Positions 2,507-13,288 of a DNA stretch of 24,734 bases are shown piece by piece (the first letter of the stretch is position 1; every line of letters begins with the position of its first letter). Origin of the DNA: a virus (lineage: Duplodnaviria > Caudoviricetes); IMG/VR virus record IMGVR_UViG_3300026085_000010, positions 1-24,734 of that record; one strand, written 5' to 3'. The translations under genes and the position numbers were made by a program. The notes beneath the pieces are model-generated. The model made no database searches. It was not told where the DNA came from and was given only the letters and a program-made list of their open reading frames with translations.

Positions 2507-2534
2507 GTGGGCGCTACGGCGCCCACTGATTTTC
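2507..2534 (+). terminator. Intrinsic terminator or stabilising hairpin with C(UACG)G tetraloop
   Basis: GTGGGCGC-TACG-GCGCCCAC (2507-2526) followed by TGATTTT; UNCG tetraloops are typical of T4-like intergenic hairpins. Confidence 0.75.
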
Positions 2535-2536
2535 AT

Positions 2537-3355
2537 ATGATTGATAAACTTCTTATAGACCACATAGACAAATATAGTAAAGACACAGATGTTGCTGTAT
2601 TATTATCTGGTGGGGTAGATAGTTTATCTGTCGCATTCGCAGCAAAGAGATTAGGTAAAAGAATAACTGCATATAGTTTTTATTTAAAAGGCAATATGAG
2701 TTATGACGCAAAGAAAGCCGCAGAAGTCGCTGTTAGAGAGAATTGGAAATTAAAACTAATTCCAATACCTTTAGATACATTAGAAAAAGATTTTATAAGA
2801 TTAGCCAAAGATATAGAATGTCAAAAGAAAACTCATTTTGAATGTTGTTTTCCATTTTTACATATCTATCCAAAGATAGAAGAGGAAGAAGTTTTAAGTG
2901 GTTGGGCAGCAGATGGTTACTATGGTATAAGTAAGAAAGCAATTTTACATTATACAAAAGGAAAATCAAAAGAAAAGTTTGATGAGTTTAGAAAGAATTA
3001 TTTTGATGTTAACAATAGAGCAGGTTATAATTGGCATCATAGAATAGCAATACAACATAATAAAAATTTTATAACACCATACTTGGATGAGAAAGTTACA
3101 AAATTCTTTTGGGAAAAAGATTGGTACGAGTTAAATCAACCATTTCAAAAACACCACGTTGTTACAGCGTTTGAAGAGTTTAAGAAATACAAATTTAAGA
3201 AACATATAAATTTACAACTAGGTTCTGGAATTGACAAACACTTTGAAACATTAATAGATAATAAAAGAATAAACTTAAAAAATAGATTGAGAGTAATGGA
3301 TATATGCAGAGATTGGGCAAAGGCGTGTCAAAGCGTAGCAACACTACCAGTATAA
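2537..3355 (+). CDS. Asparagine-synthase-like PP-loop amide ligase (synthetase domain only)
   Basis: VAVLLSGGVDS PP-loop; VLSGWAADGYYG matches AsnB VLSGEGADELFG; TPYLD matches RxPFLD. ATG 2537 preferred because GTG 2507 lies in the hairpin. Confidence 0.8.
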   Translation: MIDKLLIDHIDKYSKDTDVAVLLSGGVDSLSVAFAAKRLGKRITAYSFYLKGNMSYDAKKAAEVAVRENWKLKLIPIPLDTLEKDFIRLAKDIECQKKTHFECCFPFLHIYPKIEEEEVLSGWAADGYYGISKKAILHYTKGKSKEKFDEFRKNYFDVNNRAGYNWHHRIAIQHNKNFITPYLDEKVTKFFWEKDWYELNQPFQKHHVVTAFEEFKKYKFKKHINLQLGSGIDKHFETLIDNKRINLKNRLRVMDICRDWAKACQSVATLPV

Positions 3356-6016: not shown

Positions 6017-6325
6017 ATGACAGAAGTGAGAAGAAAAGTAAAAGAATTAGATCATTGGTTAAAAGACAAAATTGTAAATTCAATAACTGATGTTTCAAAA
6101 TACCTAGAGTCAAACGATAAAAAACCTCATTTATACTACACAGGAAACTTTCAAAAAGATGTGTTAGATAATTACACAGAGAGACAATCAAATAAAATAT
6201 TTAAGAAGTTTAGGAAATTACAATCTGTTCCTAATGTTATATTTTATCAAAAGAAATCAATTAAGTTTAAAGACGCAGATGGTGATGAGTGGTCTGGTTA
6301 TGATTATTACGTGAGGAAGATATGA
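6017..6325 (+). CDS. Hypothetical protein
   Basis: ORF coupled to the next gene by ATGA. Confidence 0.7.
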   Translation: MTEVRRKVKELDHWLKDKIVNSITDVSKYLESNDKKPHLYYTGNFQKDVLDNYTERQSNKIFKKFRKLQSVPNVIFYQKKSIKFKDADGDEWSGYDYYVRKI

Positions 6326-7095
6326 TTAAAAAATTAGATAAACAAGAAGTTAAGTATCCAGTATGGAAAAAATGGTTATGGAGTATATTTGCTTTAATAG
6401 TAATGTTTGTTGCTGGTTCGTTTTATCCAAATCCATACACCAAACACGTAATCAAAGTAGAAGTAGAATCACACTATACAAATTGGGCAAACAAATTAGG
6501 TTTAAATGAACCACCATTTGCTTATAATAATGATGTACAATTTGTTAAAGCATTAAACAAGTGTATTGATTATATAAATTTTGAAACACCTAGAATGCAA
6601 AGAGTACCTACAGAAATGATTGTTGCTCAAGCCGCATTAGAGTCAGGTTGGGGTACAAGTAGATTTGCGCAAGAAGGAAATAATCTATTTGGTATTAGAA
6701 CGTGGGGCGATCATCCTGGTATGTTACCAATAGGTTTTCCTAAAAATAATCCTTGGCGTGTTAGAATATTTGACACTAAATGCGACAGTGTAAAAGAATA
6801 TGTAAGATTATTAAATGAACATTCAGCATACGAAGACTTTAGAAGTATGAGAACAAAGATGTTAATATTGAATGAACAGTTAGACCCTATTAGATTAATT
6901 ACAACGTTAACAAAATTTTCTACAACTCCAGATTATGCTGATAGAGTTATTACAATAATAGAAAAAATAAGAACGTTTGAAGAAGCTATTGTTACCGACA
7001 AAGGTGTCAATAAGGTTGTCAAAGAAGTACCTAAAAAAGAAGAAAAATCTAACGATACTTTACCAAAGAAAAAACCTGAAGACTTAAATAAATAA
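6322..7095 (+). CDS. Membrane-anchored GH73 glucosaminidase/muramidase (FlgJ/Bax-like)
   Basis: IVAQAALESGWGTSRFA..GNNLFGI and FSTTPDY motifs; N-terminal TM WLWSIFALIVMFVAG. Confidence 0.9.
   Translation: MIKKLDKQEVKYPVWKKWLWSIFALIVMFVAGSFYPNPYTKHVIKVEVESHYTNWANKLGLNEPPFAYNNDVQFVKALNKCIDYINFETPRMQRVPTEMIVAQAALESGWGTSRFAQEGNNLFGIRTWGDHPGMLPIGFPKNNPWRVRIFDTKCDSVKEYVRLLNEHSAYEDFRSMRTKMLILNEQLDPIRLITTLTKFSTTPDYADRVITIIEKIRTFEEAIVTDKGVNKVVKEVPKKEEKSNDTLPKKKPEDLNK
7087..7094 (+). promoter_or_regulatory. T4 late-promoter variant AATAAATA
   Basis: One mismatch to TATAAATA, 5 nt before ATG 7100. Confidence 0.45.
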
Positions 7096-10371: not shown

Positions 10372-10542
10372 ATGACAGCTAAAAATAGACATAAAGAACT
10401 AAAAAAAGCAGTTAATGAGGCAGAAATAAAAAGAAATAACGATAGATCAAATTCTGCATGGTACGATATGAAAACCCTGAAGAAACTTAAATTAATAGCA
10501 AAGGACAAATTATATGAGATTAAGCAAAAGCTTCACGCTTAG
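10372..10542 (+). CDS. Small basic helical protein, DUF465/YdcH-like (56 aa), not in ORF track
   Basis: Read manually: MTAKNRHKELKKAV...MKTLKKLKLIAKDKLYEI matches the H..L...LKK.KL..KD.I signature; SD-like AAGGGG upstream. Confidence 0.6.
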   Translation: MTAKNRHKELKKAVNEAEIKRNNDRSNSAWYDMKTLKKLKLIAKDKLYEIKQKLHA

Positions 10543-11047
10543 AGAACTTGTAACTAGTCAAACTGCCGAACGTAAAGGGATTAACAACAACCCTAGCGAA
10601 GCGCAGATTGAGTGTTTACAAAGACTATGCGAGAACATACTGCAACCTATAAGAGATCATTATGGCATGCCAGTCGTAGTGAGCAGTGGATTTAGAAGTG
10701 CCGAATTGTGTTTATCAATAGGCTCATCTGTTAATTCACAGCATGCTAAAGGACAGGCGGCTGATTTTGAGATTTTTGGTATCTCTAATCAGGAGTTAGC
10801 ACATTATATTGATAAAAATTTAGATTATGACCAATTGATTTTGGAGTTTTGGAATCCAGAAGATAAGAATAGCGGATGGGTACATTGCTCTTACAAAAAT
10901 CCTGAAGAGAACAGAAAAGAGTTTTTGAGAGCTTATAGAAATGAAAGTGGTAAGACTCAATATGAAAAATACTCTTACATACAATTTGGTGGACAAGAGG
11001 CTACCAAACAGGAAGTAAACGATATGTATGCCGATAAAGGCATTTAG
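10514..11047 (+). CDS. Peptidase M15A (zinc D-Ala-D-Ala peptidase), endolysin candidate
   Basis: LS..FTL.E...S.TA.R.GI.N.P, VSSGFRS, SQHAKGQAADF, DQLILEF, GWVHCS. Confidence 0.92.
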   Translation: MRLSKSFTLRELVTSQTAERKGINNNPSEAQIECLQRLCENILQPIRDHYGMPVVVSSGFRSAELCLSIGSSVNSQHAKGQAADFEIFGISNQELAHYIDKNLDYDQLILEFWNPEDKNSGWVHCSYKNPEENRKEFLRAYRNESGKTQYEKYSYIQFGGQEATKQEVNDMYADKGI

Positions 11048-11086: not shown

Positions 11087-11779
11087 ATGGCTAGAAAATT
11101 TAATTTTATTGATTTGAATAAATCATTATTACCAGAGACAAAACGAAAGAAAATAGATGGCTTTCGTTTTTATCAAATAGATGGTAAATCCTATCCGTCT
11201 ATAACTTCAATCTTATCAATTAAAAAGACAGAAGAATTAAAAAAGTGGAGACAATCCATCGGTGAAGATGTTGCGAAGTGGGAAATGGGAAGAGCCGCAA
11301 GACGTGGTACTTCTACACATAAACTAGTTGAACAATATATCAAAGGTGAAACTCCATCGGAAAGAAGTGTATTACCACTTGGTTTATTTAAATTATTAAA
11401 ACCATATGTGGACCAAATAGATAACGTACACTTATTAGAACAAACACTTTATAGTACCAAACTTACAATCGCAGGTCAAGTTGACTGTGTTGCTGAGTAC
11501 AATGGTAAGTTGTCAGTTATTGACTTTAAAACTGCCAACAAATATAGAGAAGAAGGTTGGGTACAAAACTATTTCTTACAAACAACGGCTTATGCTATGA
11601 TGTATGAAGAATTGTTTAAAACTCCAATTGAACAAATTGTTGTATTGATCGCTTCAGAGGATGGTACAGCGCAGACATTTATAAAAAACAAGGCAGATTA
11701 TCAGGAAGAGCTGGGGATTTGCATACAAAACTTTTATAAATATTACGAAGAATTAAACAAAAACAAAGTCAAAAGTTAG
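11087..11779 (+). CDS. PD-(D/E)xK exonuclease of marine T4-like phages
   Basis: YPSITSIL, W...G, RGT..H..VE, AGQVDCVAEYNG.LSVIDFKT, Q.TAYA motifs. Confidence 0.9.
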   Translation: MARKFNFIDLNKSLLPETKRKKIDGFRFYQIDGKSYPSITSILSIKKTEELKKWRQSIGEDVAKWEMGRAARRGTSTHKLVEQYIKGETPSERSVLPLGLFKLLKPYVDQIDNVHLLEQTLYSTKLTIAGQVDCVAEYNGKLSVIDFKTANKYREEGWVQNYFLQTTAYAMMYEELFKTPIEQIVVLIASEDGTAQTFIKNKADYQEELGICIQNFYKYYEELNKNKVKS

Positions 11780-11799
11780 GTACGAAATACACATTTAAG

Positions 11800-11846
11800 A
11801 AGGTGATTTAGATTTTCTACTTGCGACCTTAACAGCTAAAGGAAAA
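11800..11846 (+). promoter_or_regulatory. SAM-II (SAM-alpha)-like riboswitch, translational OFF type
   Basis: P1 AAGGT (11800-04)/ACCTT (11826-30); GATTT (11805-09); TTGC (11821-24); AGCTAAA (11834-40); P2a TTTTCT (11813-18)/GGAAAA (11841-46) next to ATG 11848. L3 is shorter than in the canonical aptamer. Confidence 0.7.
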
Positions 11847-11847
11847 G

Positions 11848-12180
11848 ATGAAAAAGTTAATAATCAGTTTACTGATACTAATAGGGATGAGCTCTCCTGT
11901 AAGAGCTGAATATGACTTATTTTGGAGATATTTACCTGCGATTTGTGGAACCTTTGATGAGGTTCAGCGTTACATTAAAAACAGAGATGGAGATATTACT
12001 GTTTCTAATGTTGGTTTGGGGAGAAGCAGTAGTCATCCAGAGGGTGATGTAGTTTTTATGGTGACAATATATAATAGTGCTGATGGCTCACAGGAAACTG
12101 CTACTGTACAAATACCAGATAACGAAGAAGTTTGTATGGTGTATCACATATTTAATAAAACTGAAGTAAAGGAAAAATGA
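11848..12180 (+). CDS. Small secreted protein with two Cys (110 aa)
   Basis: Signal peptide MKKLIISLLILIGMSSPVRA; PAICG and EEVCMV Cys pair. Confidence 0.75.
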   Translation: MKKLIISLLILIGMSSPVRAEYDLFWRYLPAICGTFDEVQRYIKNRDGDITVSNVGLGRSSSHPEGDVVFMVTIYNSADGSQETATVQIPDNEEVCMVYHIFNKTEVKEK

Positions 12181-12386
12181 AAAAAATAATTATATTAATG
12201 GTTGCTGGTTTACTAGTAACTGCGTGTTCAATTAAAGAACCTAGATTATCTTTTGGTAAAAAATGTACTGTTAAAGATGATAAAGTTGTTTATTCATATG
12301 TATGGTTATATGATAAAAAAGTTGGACTTCCAGCTACTAAAAACGATTGTCAATACATAGCAACTCATATTTTAAACAGACCATAA
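12177..12386 (+). CDS. Small lipoprotein (69 aa)
   Basis: SD AAGGA, ATGA overlap, lipobox LVTAC, two further Cys. Confidence 0.75.
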   Translation: MKKIIILMVAGLLVTACSIKEPRLSFGKKCTVKDDKVVYSYVWLYDKKVGLPATKNDCQYIATHILNRP

Positions 12387-12387
12387 T

Positions 12388-12618
12388 AAATTTAACGTTG
12401 AAGGTTAGATAATAACTAGTGAGGACCTGGGTGCAATACCCAGCCACTCCACCATTATAACAATGAAATTATAGGGGTGGAATAGATTCGACTGCTACTA
12501 AAACTAACTGGAGTTATTTCGCTGACACCGTAATGTCATTTACAAATGCTAACAATTTAGCGATGGCAGCTTAAAGCTGCTGATGGGTTCGCCTGTACCT
12601 AGTAACAGAAACAGGCAC
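12388..12618 (+). ncRNA. ssrA: Circularly permuted (two-piece) tmRNA, alphaproteobacterial type; tag (A)ANNLAMAA
   Basis: Acceptor piece first: GAC-CTGGG-TGCAATA-CCCAG-CCACTCC-ACCA (12424-12454). Then a 19-nt intervening segment, then GGGGTGG-AATAGATTCGAC (12474-12492). The 7-bp acceptor stem has G3.U70. Tag ORF 12548-12574 follows TACAAAT. Outer ends are approximate. Confidence 0.95.
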
Positions 12619-12626
12619 AATCACTC

Positions 12627-12655
12627 TTTACAAATCAAAAAAAATATGATATATT
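12627..12655 (+). promoter_or_regulatory. Sigma70-type promoter for thyX
   Basis: TTTACA (12627-32), 17 nt ending TGA, TATATT (12650-55); ATG follows after 6 nt. Confidence 0.7.
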
Positions 12656-12661
12656 AATAAT

Positions 12662-13288
12662 ATGAATATTGAATTGATAGACAAAATGGGTAGTGATCTA
12701 TCCGTTGTAAATGCGGCAAGAGTTTCATTTTCAAAAATCAAAGATCACTTTGATGATAAGGACGAAAGACTTATCAAGTATCTAGCAACACACAATCATT
12801 GGTCACCATTTGGACACGCAAGTTTACAATTTAGAATTAAAGCGCCTGTCTTTGTGGCTAGACAATTAGTAAAACATCAAGTAGGATTAATTTGGAATGA
12901 AGTCAGTAGAAGATATGTGGATGAAGAGCCACAATTCTATATTCCATTTGCTTGGCGTAAAAAGGCAGAGAATAAAAAACAAGGTAGTAGCGATGAAGAA
13001 ATACCATATGATATAGTTGATTTTGTTAAGAAATGTAAAGAACTATATAACGATATGTTACAAAAGGACATTGCGCCAGAAATGGCGAGAATGGTGTTAC
13101 CTCAAAATATGATGACTGAATGGATATGGTCAGGAACATTATACGCTTTTGCTAGAGTATGTAATTTAAGAAACAAACCAGATGCACAGGTAGAAACCAG
13201 AATGGTTACACACCAAATGCACAAACACTGTCAGGAACATTTTCCAGTCAGTTGGAGGTATTTAACAGATGAACTCAAAGGAGTTTAG
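12662..13288 (+). CDS. thyX: Flavin-dependent thymidylate synthase
   Basis: VNAARVS, HWSPF, APVFVARQLVKHQ...WNEVSRRYV, APEMARMVLPQ, LR....AQ.E.R. Confidence 0.97.
   Translation: MNIELIDKMGSDLSVVNAARVSFSKIKDHFDDKDERLIKYLATHNHWSPFGHASLQFRIKAPVFVARQLVKHQVGLIWNEVSRRYVDEEPQFYIPFAWRKKAENKKQGSSDEEIPYDIVDFVKKCKELYNDMLQKDIAPEMARMVLPQNMMTEWIWSGTLYAFARVCNLRNKPDAQVETRMVTHQMHKHCQEHFPVSWRYLTDELKGV

What the first reader, a model, noticed from the sequence alone, without database searches (positions are those of the whole stretch)
11800..12180. Phage-borne SAM-II-like riboswitch gating a secreted protein of unknown function
Seen: the 68-nt gap after the exonuclease holds every core element of the SAM-II H-type pseudoknot in order: P1 (AAGGT/ACCTT), GAUUU, UUGC and AGCUAAA. 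P2a (TTTTCT/GGAAAA) pairs with the AGGA-containing purine run just before ATG 11848. Established: SAM-II and SAM-V are mainly alphaproteobacterial riboswitches that shut off methionine/SAM genes by SD sequestration. Inference: the phage senses host SAM and makes an exported two-Cys protein, and perhaps the coupled lipoprotein, only when SAM is low. That suggests an unknown role in sulfur or methyl-donor acquisition, or in timing infection. The regulated gene is not a recognisable met gene. Caveats: L3 is only about 4 nt, and the SD is unusually close to the ATG.
Basis: partly seen in the sequence, partly recalled or inferred. Interest (0 to 1): 0.85.

Follow-up and report, generated by a model that had tools for sequence, protein, structure and literature searches.

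The report
Compact SAM riboswitch in ocean phages
A virus that likely infects the ocean bacterium SAR11 carries a conserved, shrunken look-alike of the SAM-II RNA switch, missed by the standard RNA catalogue, which is predicted to block production of a likely secreted, likely late-made protein of unknown job until the host's methyl donor SAM runs low, and so would let the virus time a step of infection by the host's sulfur status.

Summary
Confirmed. The 47-nt element at 11800-11846 holds every nucleotide of the SAM-II ligand-binding triple helix, but its P1 stem and L3 loop are short, and Rfam misses it. It precedes the same gene in 12 of 80 loci found through the upstream exonuclease alone, although the protein downstream is only about 38% identical. 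P2a, which covers the ribosome site, shows compensatory changes. The same compact fold occurs in two unrelated groups. In one it lies in tandem with a longer SAM-II-like aptamer, in some copies ahead of SAM synthetase and a DNA methylase: the best sign that the ligand is SAM. A T4-type late promoter lies upstream in 51 of 52 leaders. Relatives without the aptamer have a different, covarying switch that would also hold the gene off early. I read it as a SAM-off translational gate timing a late exported protein; sulfur uptake is less likely. Binding is untested, the protein has no known family or fold, and the lipoprotein is absent from 7 of 13 carriers. New variant of a known kind.

The parts
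11087..11779 (+). Exonuclease gene (PD-(D/E)XK); its 3' end holds the late promoter
   Evidence: phrog_298 E 2.4e-65; best isolate match Pelagibacter phage Mosig, 65.5%
11735..11742 (+). T4-type late promoter box TATAAATA inside the exonuclease gene; predicted start of a late transcript carrying aptamer and gene X
   Evidence: 5 copies in the window, all on +; present upstream in 51 of 52 distinct leaders against about 0.53 expected from codon use; box as given in PMC3014915
11800..11846 (+). Compact SAM-II-like H-type pseudoknot aptamer: P1 11800-04/11826-30; L1 11805-09; P2 11821-24/11835-39 with U11837 as predicted SAM-adenine partner; A11840 as predicted amino-acyl contact; P2a 11813-18/11841-46 over the ribosome site; L3 11831-34
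   Evidence: sequence; conservation; pairing; published contacts
11848..12180 (+). Gene X: 110 aa, likely cleaved signal peptide (A20), two conserved Cys (C33, C96), alpha/beta domain; phage family of unknown function
   Evidence: alignment; no Pfam or PHROG hit; AlphaFold pLDDT 93; no PDB fold match; orthologue Mosig_00149
12177..12386 (+). Accessory 69-aa predicted lipoprotein Y, overlapping the X stop; not tied to the aptamer
   Evidence: weak LPAM_1 hit below cut-off; present in 6 of 13 motif carriers and 11 of 65 motif-less loci
12360..12619 (+). Two-piece alphaproteobacterial-type tmRNA downstream on the same strand
   Evidence: RF01849 76 bits and RF04321 77.5 bits; ARAGORN

Best explanation
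The 47-nt element is a conserved compact pseudoknot with the SAM-II core, predicted to bind SAM and thereby clamp P2a over the ribosome site of gene X, so that this likely exported, likely late protein would be made only once host SAM has fallen, most likely as a timer for a late envelope step such as lysis or exclusion. Steps: (1) shown: sequence, conservation, covariation, position over the ribosome site, conserved late-promoter box; (2) inferred, about 0.8: the ligand is SAM and binding switches translation off as in metX SAM-II and SAM-V; (3) inferred, about 0.75: X is transcribed late from 11735-11742; (4) inferred, about 0.4: X acts in the periplasm on lysis timing or superinfection exclusion, and SAM, drained by the phage's own SAM-using enzymes in a host that cannot reduce sulfate, serves as the clock. 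In relatives without the aptamer a ribosome-coupled hairpin switch appears to do the same gating job.
For: All six SAM-II base triples tabulated in PMC7583470 can be laid on the window: A11834 with A11826-U11804, G11805 with G11835-C11824, A11806 with C11836-G11823, U11807 with U11837, U11808 with A11838-U11822, U11809 with A11839-U11821. A11840 matches the amino-acyl-binding A of PMC6061858, and the C facing it is also the Rfam SAM_alpha consensus letter. The core is unchanged in 9 of 9 distinct leaders found without an RNA pattern, while window X is a median 38% identical to X of other carriers. The third P2a pair holds in 59 of 59 rows (C-G 44, U-A 14, U-G 1); 21 cells change on both sides against 7.0+-2.1 shuffled; RNAalifold picks the same P2a register unaided. 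Other groups use other P1 pairs. Group C: second SAM-II-like aptamer in 26 of 29 loci, with weak Rfam SAM_V/SAM_alpha hits (best E 0.022); metK motif in 5 of 29 loci; metK then a DNA methylase downstream on the same strand in 2 of 3 group C viral records. Late box in 51 of 52 leaders, and at a different position in the divergent complete genome G004. Motif-less leaders: start regions more structured than controls (median -8.6 vs -3.9 kcal/mol); a covarying upstream complement in 23 of 33, against 0 of 41 aptamer leaders. T4 uses late promoter plus ribosome-site hairpin for lysozyme e (PMC3014915). G004 has 6 radical-SAM hits and an MT-A70 hit among 108 proteins scanned. SAM switches respond to sulfur limitation in Pelagibacter (PMC5069961).
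Against: No binding or expression data. Rfam SAM models do not score it. P1 is weak: 5 pairs here (-3.3 kcal/mol), the fourth pair holds in only 24 of 44 group A leaders, and the top pair is C-A in 2. L3 is 4 nt against about 10 in the consensus, so the pseudoknot may be strained. Within group A alone P1 shows almost no two-sided change; most covariation is between groups, and the number of covarying pairs (4) does not exceed shuffles (113 of 500). Core letters in pattern-found rows were fixed by my patterns. Most relatives do without the aptamer (65 of 80 have neither full nor decayed form). metK follows only a minority of group C copies (5 of 29 loci; none in G007). The late box overlaps conserved Tyr-Lys-Tyr codons and lineages are not independent. 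Nothing links X to lysis except timing and predicted location. The host is inferred from the Mosig match and tmRNA type.
Confidence: 0.62

Rival explanations
1. A SAM-II-derived fold that now binds another ligand, or binds nothing and acts as a fixed ribosome-site hairpin that merely dampens X.
For: Short P1 and L3; nested folding shows only P2a plus two P2 pairs; relatives use plain hairpins; three decayed copies have become plain long hairpins (L033, L066, L072); X is not a sulfur gene.
Against: A plain hairpin would not need GAUUU, U11837 or P1, yet these are unchanged in 9 of 9 unselected leaders and across very divergent exonuclease lineages. Every SAM-contacting position is the canonical letter. 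Group C copies precede metK.
Confidence: 0.17
2. A true SAM-off switch whose target X helps the infected cell take up reduced sulfur or methyl donors.
For: This is the usual logic of SAM switches; Pelagibacter depends on reduced sulfur (PMC5069961); X is likely exported.
Against: X is about 90 aa mature with no binding-protein family or fold match; its look-alike clusters are 100% viral; 79 of 80 loci keep X but only 12 put it under the aptamer, the rest mostly under a SAM-independent switch; a late promoter suits an end-of-cycle job.
Confidence: 0.12
3. A conserved binding site for a phage protein (RegA-like translational operator) or a DNA element that resembles SAM-II by convergence.
For: These phages encode a RegA-type regulator (PF01818 in G004); the element is short and highly conserved in letter.
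Against: Two interleaved stems with compensatory changes and spacers of variable length (9-13 nt); the same fold appears in unrelated phage groups with unrelated genes.
Confidence: 0.06
4. Chance resemblance in an AT-rich spacer.
For: No Rfam hit; core words alone appear in about 4% of shuffled windows.
Against: 1 of 1500 with stems; orthologous conservation.
Confidence: 0.01

Closest known systems
SAM-II riboswitch (Rfam RF00521 SAM_alpha; metX structure PDB 2QWY)
   Same: H-type pseudoknot order; GAUUU, UUGC and GCUAA core; all six listed triples; C before UUGC as in the Rfam consensus; short P2a over the ribosome site as in metX.
   Different: P1 of 3-5 pairs against 6 in the model; L3 of about 4 nt against about 10; below any Rfam score; phage-borne; target is not a methionine or SAM gene; most SAM-II are transcriptional (PMC6061858).
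SAM-V riboswitch (RF01826; metY structure PDB 6FZ0)
   Same: Translational off switch through P2a; 4-pair P1; two adenines shortly before the ascending P2 strand in most group A copies; found in SAR11.
   Different: SAM-V has a longer P2, a P3 hairpin in L3 and a different L1 (alignment seen; structure); all absent here.
Tandem SAM-II/SAM-V before bhmT in Pelagibacter (PMC11508383)
   Same: Group C relatives show a tandem of two SAM-II-type aptamers, the first before a terminator-like hairpin and the second over a ribosome site.
   Different: The window's copy is single; group C lies in unrelated GC-richer elements, some with a terminase small subunit upstream.
T4 genes e, soc, 49 and I-TevI: ribosome-site hairpin plus late promoter (PMC3014915)
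   Same: A late gene kept untranslated early by RNA structure over the ribosome site.
   Different: In T4 the late promoter cuts off the 5' arm. Here it lies upstream of the whole structure, so opening would need a ligand drop (aptamer type) or an upstream competing strand (motif-less type).
Predicted glutamine riboswitch of phages Melnitz and Mosig (PMC9004378)
   Same: Riboswitch proposed in T4-like phages of streamlined marine bacteria, near the tmRNA gene.
   Different: Different class and ligand, placed within ssrA; no SAM class appears in the passages I read.

Membership tests
SAM-II (RF00521) | H-type pseudoknot with P1, L1, P2, L3 in order | tested here: met
   Sequence; pair counts. 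P1 covaries mainly between groups.
SAM-II (RF00521) | Triple-helix nucleotides that contact SAM (U-U-SAM, two U-A-U, G-G-C, A-C-G) and the amino-acyl-binding A | tested here: met
   All map onto 11805-11809, 11821-11824, 11835-11840; unchanged in 9 of 9 unselected leaders
SAM-II (RF00521) | P1 of about 6 pairs and L3 of about 10 nt | tested here: not met
   P1 5 pairs and L3 4 nt in the window; 3-pair P1 in many relatives
SAM-II (RF00521) | Covariance-model score at or above gathering (36 bits) | tested here: not met
   No hit at E<=5 on the window or E<=10 on 121 nt
SAM-II (RF00521) | Upstream of methionine or SAM genes | tested here: not met
   X has no family. Met only for some group C relatives.
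SAM-II (RF00521) | Binds SAM and rejects SAH | not testable with these tools
   Needs in-line probing or ITC
SAM-V (RF01826) | Extended P2 and P3 hairpin in L3 | tested here: not met
   Compared with the alignment and the structure; L3 is 4 nt; no Rfam hit
SAM-V (RF01826) | P2a occludes the ribosome site | tested here: met
   P2a 3' strand 11841-11846 lies 2-7 nt before AUG; third pair kept in 59 of 59 rows; occlusion itself is predicted
SAM-II long loops (RF01726, number recalled) | Long loops | tested here: not met
   Loops are shorter than canonical; no hit in the full Rfam scans
Gene X: PsbP/Mog1/DcrB-like or any solved fold | Significant structural match | tested here: inconclusive
   Best Foldseek E 0.1, TM 0.39-0.52 to PsbP; best VIA Z 6.9 to propeller blades, within the usual background

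The most novel reading that the evidence does not exclude
A miniature, Rfam-invisible SAM-II subclass is shared by at least three unrelated groups of phages and mobile elements, and SAR11 myophages use it as a metabolic clock: the aptamer swaps in and out with a ribosome-coupled hairpin switch in front of one conserved late periplasmic protein, which sets when the sulfur-starved host is lysed or closed to other phages.
Probability: 0.35. Interest if true: 0.88.

Novelty: new variant of a known kind. Interest (0 to 1): 0.72.

Why it matters
A survey of SAR11 myophages reported no riboswitch (PMC7029224) and a later study reported only glutamine ones (PMC9004378). This motif falls below Rfam's models, so such surveys would miss it. 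If it binds SAM, it shows that likely phages of the most abundant ocean bacterium read the host's reduced-sulfur state directly, and it gives a roughly 47-nt natural SAM-II aptamer that tests how little P1 and L3 the fold needs. It also gives a handle on a widespread unannotated phage protein family: two different RNA switches guard the same gene, which marks its timing as important and makes a direct test possible in the cultured Mosig-HTCC1062 system.

Tried and rejected
Rfam scans of the window and of 121 nt: no SAM family; RF00521 on the own record rang nothing, controls included. Direct search of viral contigs with X found one locus matching only residues 1-22; the exonuclease anchor worked instead. 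GTDB scan with the group A pattern: 10 matches, none with the stems or X, read as chance; the pattern required the U-A top pair, so group B and C forms in cells were not tested. I could not reach Pelagibacter genomes directly, so a host source of the compact form is open. A viral scan with other letters before UUGC gave 120 loci, 72 distinct, none convincing; the 12-locus L392 type reads as the end of a coding frame. Alternative P2a registers: -3:+3 fits poorly; -3:+1 fits the first three pairs equally (67 of 67 each) but fails further out and would use up A11840. One search used a mis-registered structure string and is void; one search replaces it. Rows dropped: 82 raw, 69 kept by a stem filter, L266 and L208 removed as chance, 67 counted; 59 of them went into alignment A2, where MAFFT offsets group C's P1 by one column. 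SAM lyase PF23780: no match in 5 records, but controls did not ring. No second aptamer copy in complete genome G004. Sequence and fold searches for X gave no named relative. One RNA run holds a contig over 11775-12254, but it is unstranded and also covers neighbouring genes, so it is not evidence of expression. The careful exonuclease tree did not finish; the quick tree was used.

Full report
Setting. The window is a 24.7-kb virus record, 17% complete by CheckV, with T4-like gene content. The closest cultured phage is Pelagibacter phage Mosig: exonuclease 65.5%, tmRNA-thyX region best of 22 records, and the only isolate with an X homologue at E<=0.01 (41%), in the same place after the exonuclease. 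The tmRNA is of the two-piece alphaproteobacterial type. A SAR11 host is likely but inferred.

Observation. The three core words alone turn up in 4 of 100 shuffles and 57 of 1500 simulated windows; with both stems, in 1 of 1500. Rfam finds no SAM family, even at E<=10 on 121 nt.

Conservation. I fetched the best 80 of 594 viral stretches encoding the exonuclease, using no RNA pattern. 79 of 80 hold a match to the X profile. 12 of 80 have the full motif directly before X, 3 a decayed one, and a model built from the motif finds nothing else in them or in the Mosig stretch (the model includes some of these sequences, so its scores are not independent). The 9 distinct full leaders keep GAUUU, CU(A/G)C-UUGC, ACC and GCUAAAGG unchanged while spacer and L3 vary in length. 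Pattern scans raised this to 44 distinct group A leaders. Of 119 loci from the tighter scan, 97 had X, 5 were X loci cut by the contig end, 7 belonged to two other groups and 10 looked like chance. Window X is a median 38%, at most 45%, identical to X of other carriers. On quick trees the motif is patchy: 10 changes on the exonuclease tree, at least 4 forced by strong branches, including a very divergent exonuclease clade, and 10 on the X tree, at least 6 forced. So it was gained or lost repeatedly. Two close strains differ in the gap by single-base indels at 11796 and 11811, outside the core; no substitution in the gap is listed, but 28 rows were not shown.

Structure. On 59 aligned rows, 90.9% of cells pair and 21 change on both sides against 7.0+-2.1 shuffled, but the number of covarying pairs (4) is not above shuffles (113 of 500), and the core columns were fixed by my patterns. 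The clearest pair is the third of P2a: C-G 44, U-A 14 (11 group C and 3 group A, the window among them), U-G 1. RNAalifold chooses this register unaided. P1 is short: three pairs in nearly all rows, a fourth in 24 of 44 group A rows, and other pairs in groups B and C. Every triple listed for SAM-II in PMC7583470 (passages) can be placed. The SAM-adenine U, the sulfonium U-A-U triple and the amino-acyl A described for SAM-V in PMC6061858 (parts 1-3 of 5) have counterparts at U11837, U11808/U11822 and A11840. The base facing A11840 is C, not A as in the solved structures, but C is the Rfam SAM_alpha consensus, and A and C interchange there among group C second aptamers. SAM-V features (longer P2, P3) are absent (supplement S7 of PMC2704228, part 1 of 8).

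Ligand evidence from other contexts. Group B (4 distinct leaders) lies before a roughly 65-aa ORF in small phages. Group C (29 loci) lies in GC-richer contigs, before a terminator-like hairpin; 26 of 29 have a second, longer SAM-II-like aptamer about 90 nt on, over a ribosome site (two of the three misses are cut short). These second aptamers score weakly with SAM_V and SAM_alpha (best E 0.022 and 0.078, all below gathering; 9 such hits in 12 loci scanned). A metK motif follows in 5 of 29 loci (Pfam S-AdoMet_synt_N E 1.7e-11), and in 2 of 3 viral records metK and then an N6/N4 methylase lie downstream on the same strand. This is the strongest indirect sign that the compact fold senses SAM.

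Timing. TATAAATA lies at 11735-11742 and at four other sites in the window, all on +. It is upstream of X in 51 of 52 distinct leaders and in 42 of 48 distinct aptamer-bearing X genes. It overlaps Tyr-Lys-Tyr codons, where codon use predicts about 0.53, and lineages are related; but complete genome G004 has lost it there and has one further downstream. Motif-less leaders have structured start regions (median -8.6 kcal/mol, n=40, against -3.9 for 282 control ORFs). In 23 of 33 of them the exonuclease tail just after the late box is complementary over 7 or more bases to the hairpin's 5' arm (shuffled mean 2.9, swapped between loci 10.8, maximum 18). The two sides covary in three matched classes (15, 14, 1; 3 unmatched; none crossed), and 0 of 41 aptamer leaders show this. 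My reading is inference: ribosomes on the exonuclease gene hide the competing strand, so the hairpin shuts X on early messages, and the ribosome-free late message opens it. The aptamer replaces this device. T4 guards lysozyme in a similar spirit (PMC3014915, passages). The short ribosome-site spacing is also seen in motif-less leaders, so it is a trait of the gene.

Protein X. 63 cluster representatives at E<=0.001; near-invariant A20 after a hydrophobic stretch, and C33, G66, C96. Export and a disulfide are inferred. There is no Pfam, PHROG or PDB sequence match and look-alike clusters are all viral. The model is confident but matches only uncharacterised phage proteins and nothing solved above background. 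Lipoprotein Y is accessory. G004 has one aptamer copy, 6 radical-SAM hits and an MT-A70 hit among the 108 of 136 ORFs scanned, and no metK. A late, exported, tightly gated protein fits lysis timing or exclusion better than uptake, but this step is a guess at about 0.4.

Literature. PMC7029224 (passages) found no riboswitch in pelagimyophages with Riboswitch Scanner; PMC9004378 (passages) reports glutamine ones. Searches for a phage SAM-II report gave nothing relevant (listings only, except papers named here). PMC10690425 (passages) does not use the word riboswitch; 6 supplementary files had no match, but 3 could not be searched and may list this motif as an unnamed candidate. PMC5069961 (passages) shows SAM-switch genes rise under sulfur limitation. 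PMC11508383 (part 1 of 6) and PMC12379486 (passages) added little. The library lacks most subscription papers. Earlier notes of this scan describe other phage SAM switches but none like this sequence.

Verdict. A real, conserved RNA that works like SAM-II but fails the family's size and score criteria: a new compact variant. SAM sensing about 0.8; full best explanation 0.62; interest 0.72.

Noticed in passing
Leaders of gene X in motif-less loci, e.g. L003, L007, L016, L034, L049, L079: A second, covarying RNA switch: the exonuclease coding tail pairs with the 5' arm of the ribosome-site hairpin (23 of 33 leaders, three matched sequence classes); it would turn X on only on ribosome-free late transcripts.
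   Followed up: partly
L221, L244, L306 and most of L332-L368 (group C): Tandem of a compact and a longer SAM-II-like aptamer with a terminator-like hairpin between them, below Rfam thresholds, ahead of varied genes including metK and a DNA methylase; a terminase small subunit lies upstream in L221.
   Followed up: partly
L230, L257, L289, L307, L333, L334, L339, L344, L348, L361 (group B): The smallest form (3-pair P1) before a roughly 65-aa unknown ORF that runs against the virion genes of small phages; in L333 the ORF starts with ATT and is shortened.
   Followed up: partly
window 11087-13288: The order exonuclease, tmRNA, thyX echoes the Pelagibacter HTCC1062 locus where tmRNA lies between thyX and COG4696 (table in PMC2704228); possible shared origin. 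That COG4696 is a nuclease is recalled, not tested.
   Followed up: no
window 12360-12619: Two-piece tmRNA with tag ANNLAMAA; its predicted 5' flank overlaps the end of lipoprotein Y.
   Followed up: no
L033, L066, L072: Decayed aptamers that have turned into long plain hairpins over the start codon, apparent intermediates of loss.
   Followed up: partly
L219, L338, L354 and related: A very divergent exonuclease sits in the same place before the same aptamer and X, suggesting gene replacement upstream of the cassette.
   Followed up: no
window 6322-7095 and 10514-11047: Two cell-wall hydrolases near X: a glucosaminidase with a hydrophobic N-terminal stretch (PF01832) and an M15 peptidase endolysin; Mosig has a GH108 in place of the latter.
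   Followed up: no
window 2507-3355: Asparagine-synthase/QueC-like HUP-domain protein of unknown role.
   Followed up: no
L354 and L364: One 305-kb contig holds the identical locus twice about 165 kb apart, probably an assembly concatemer.
   Followed up: no
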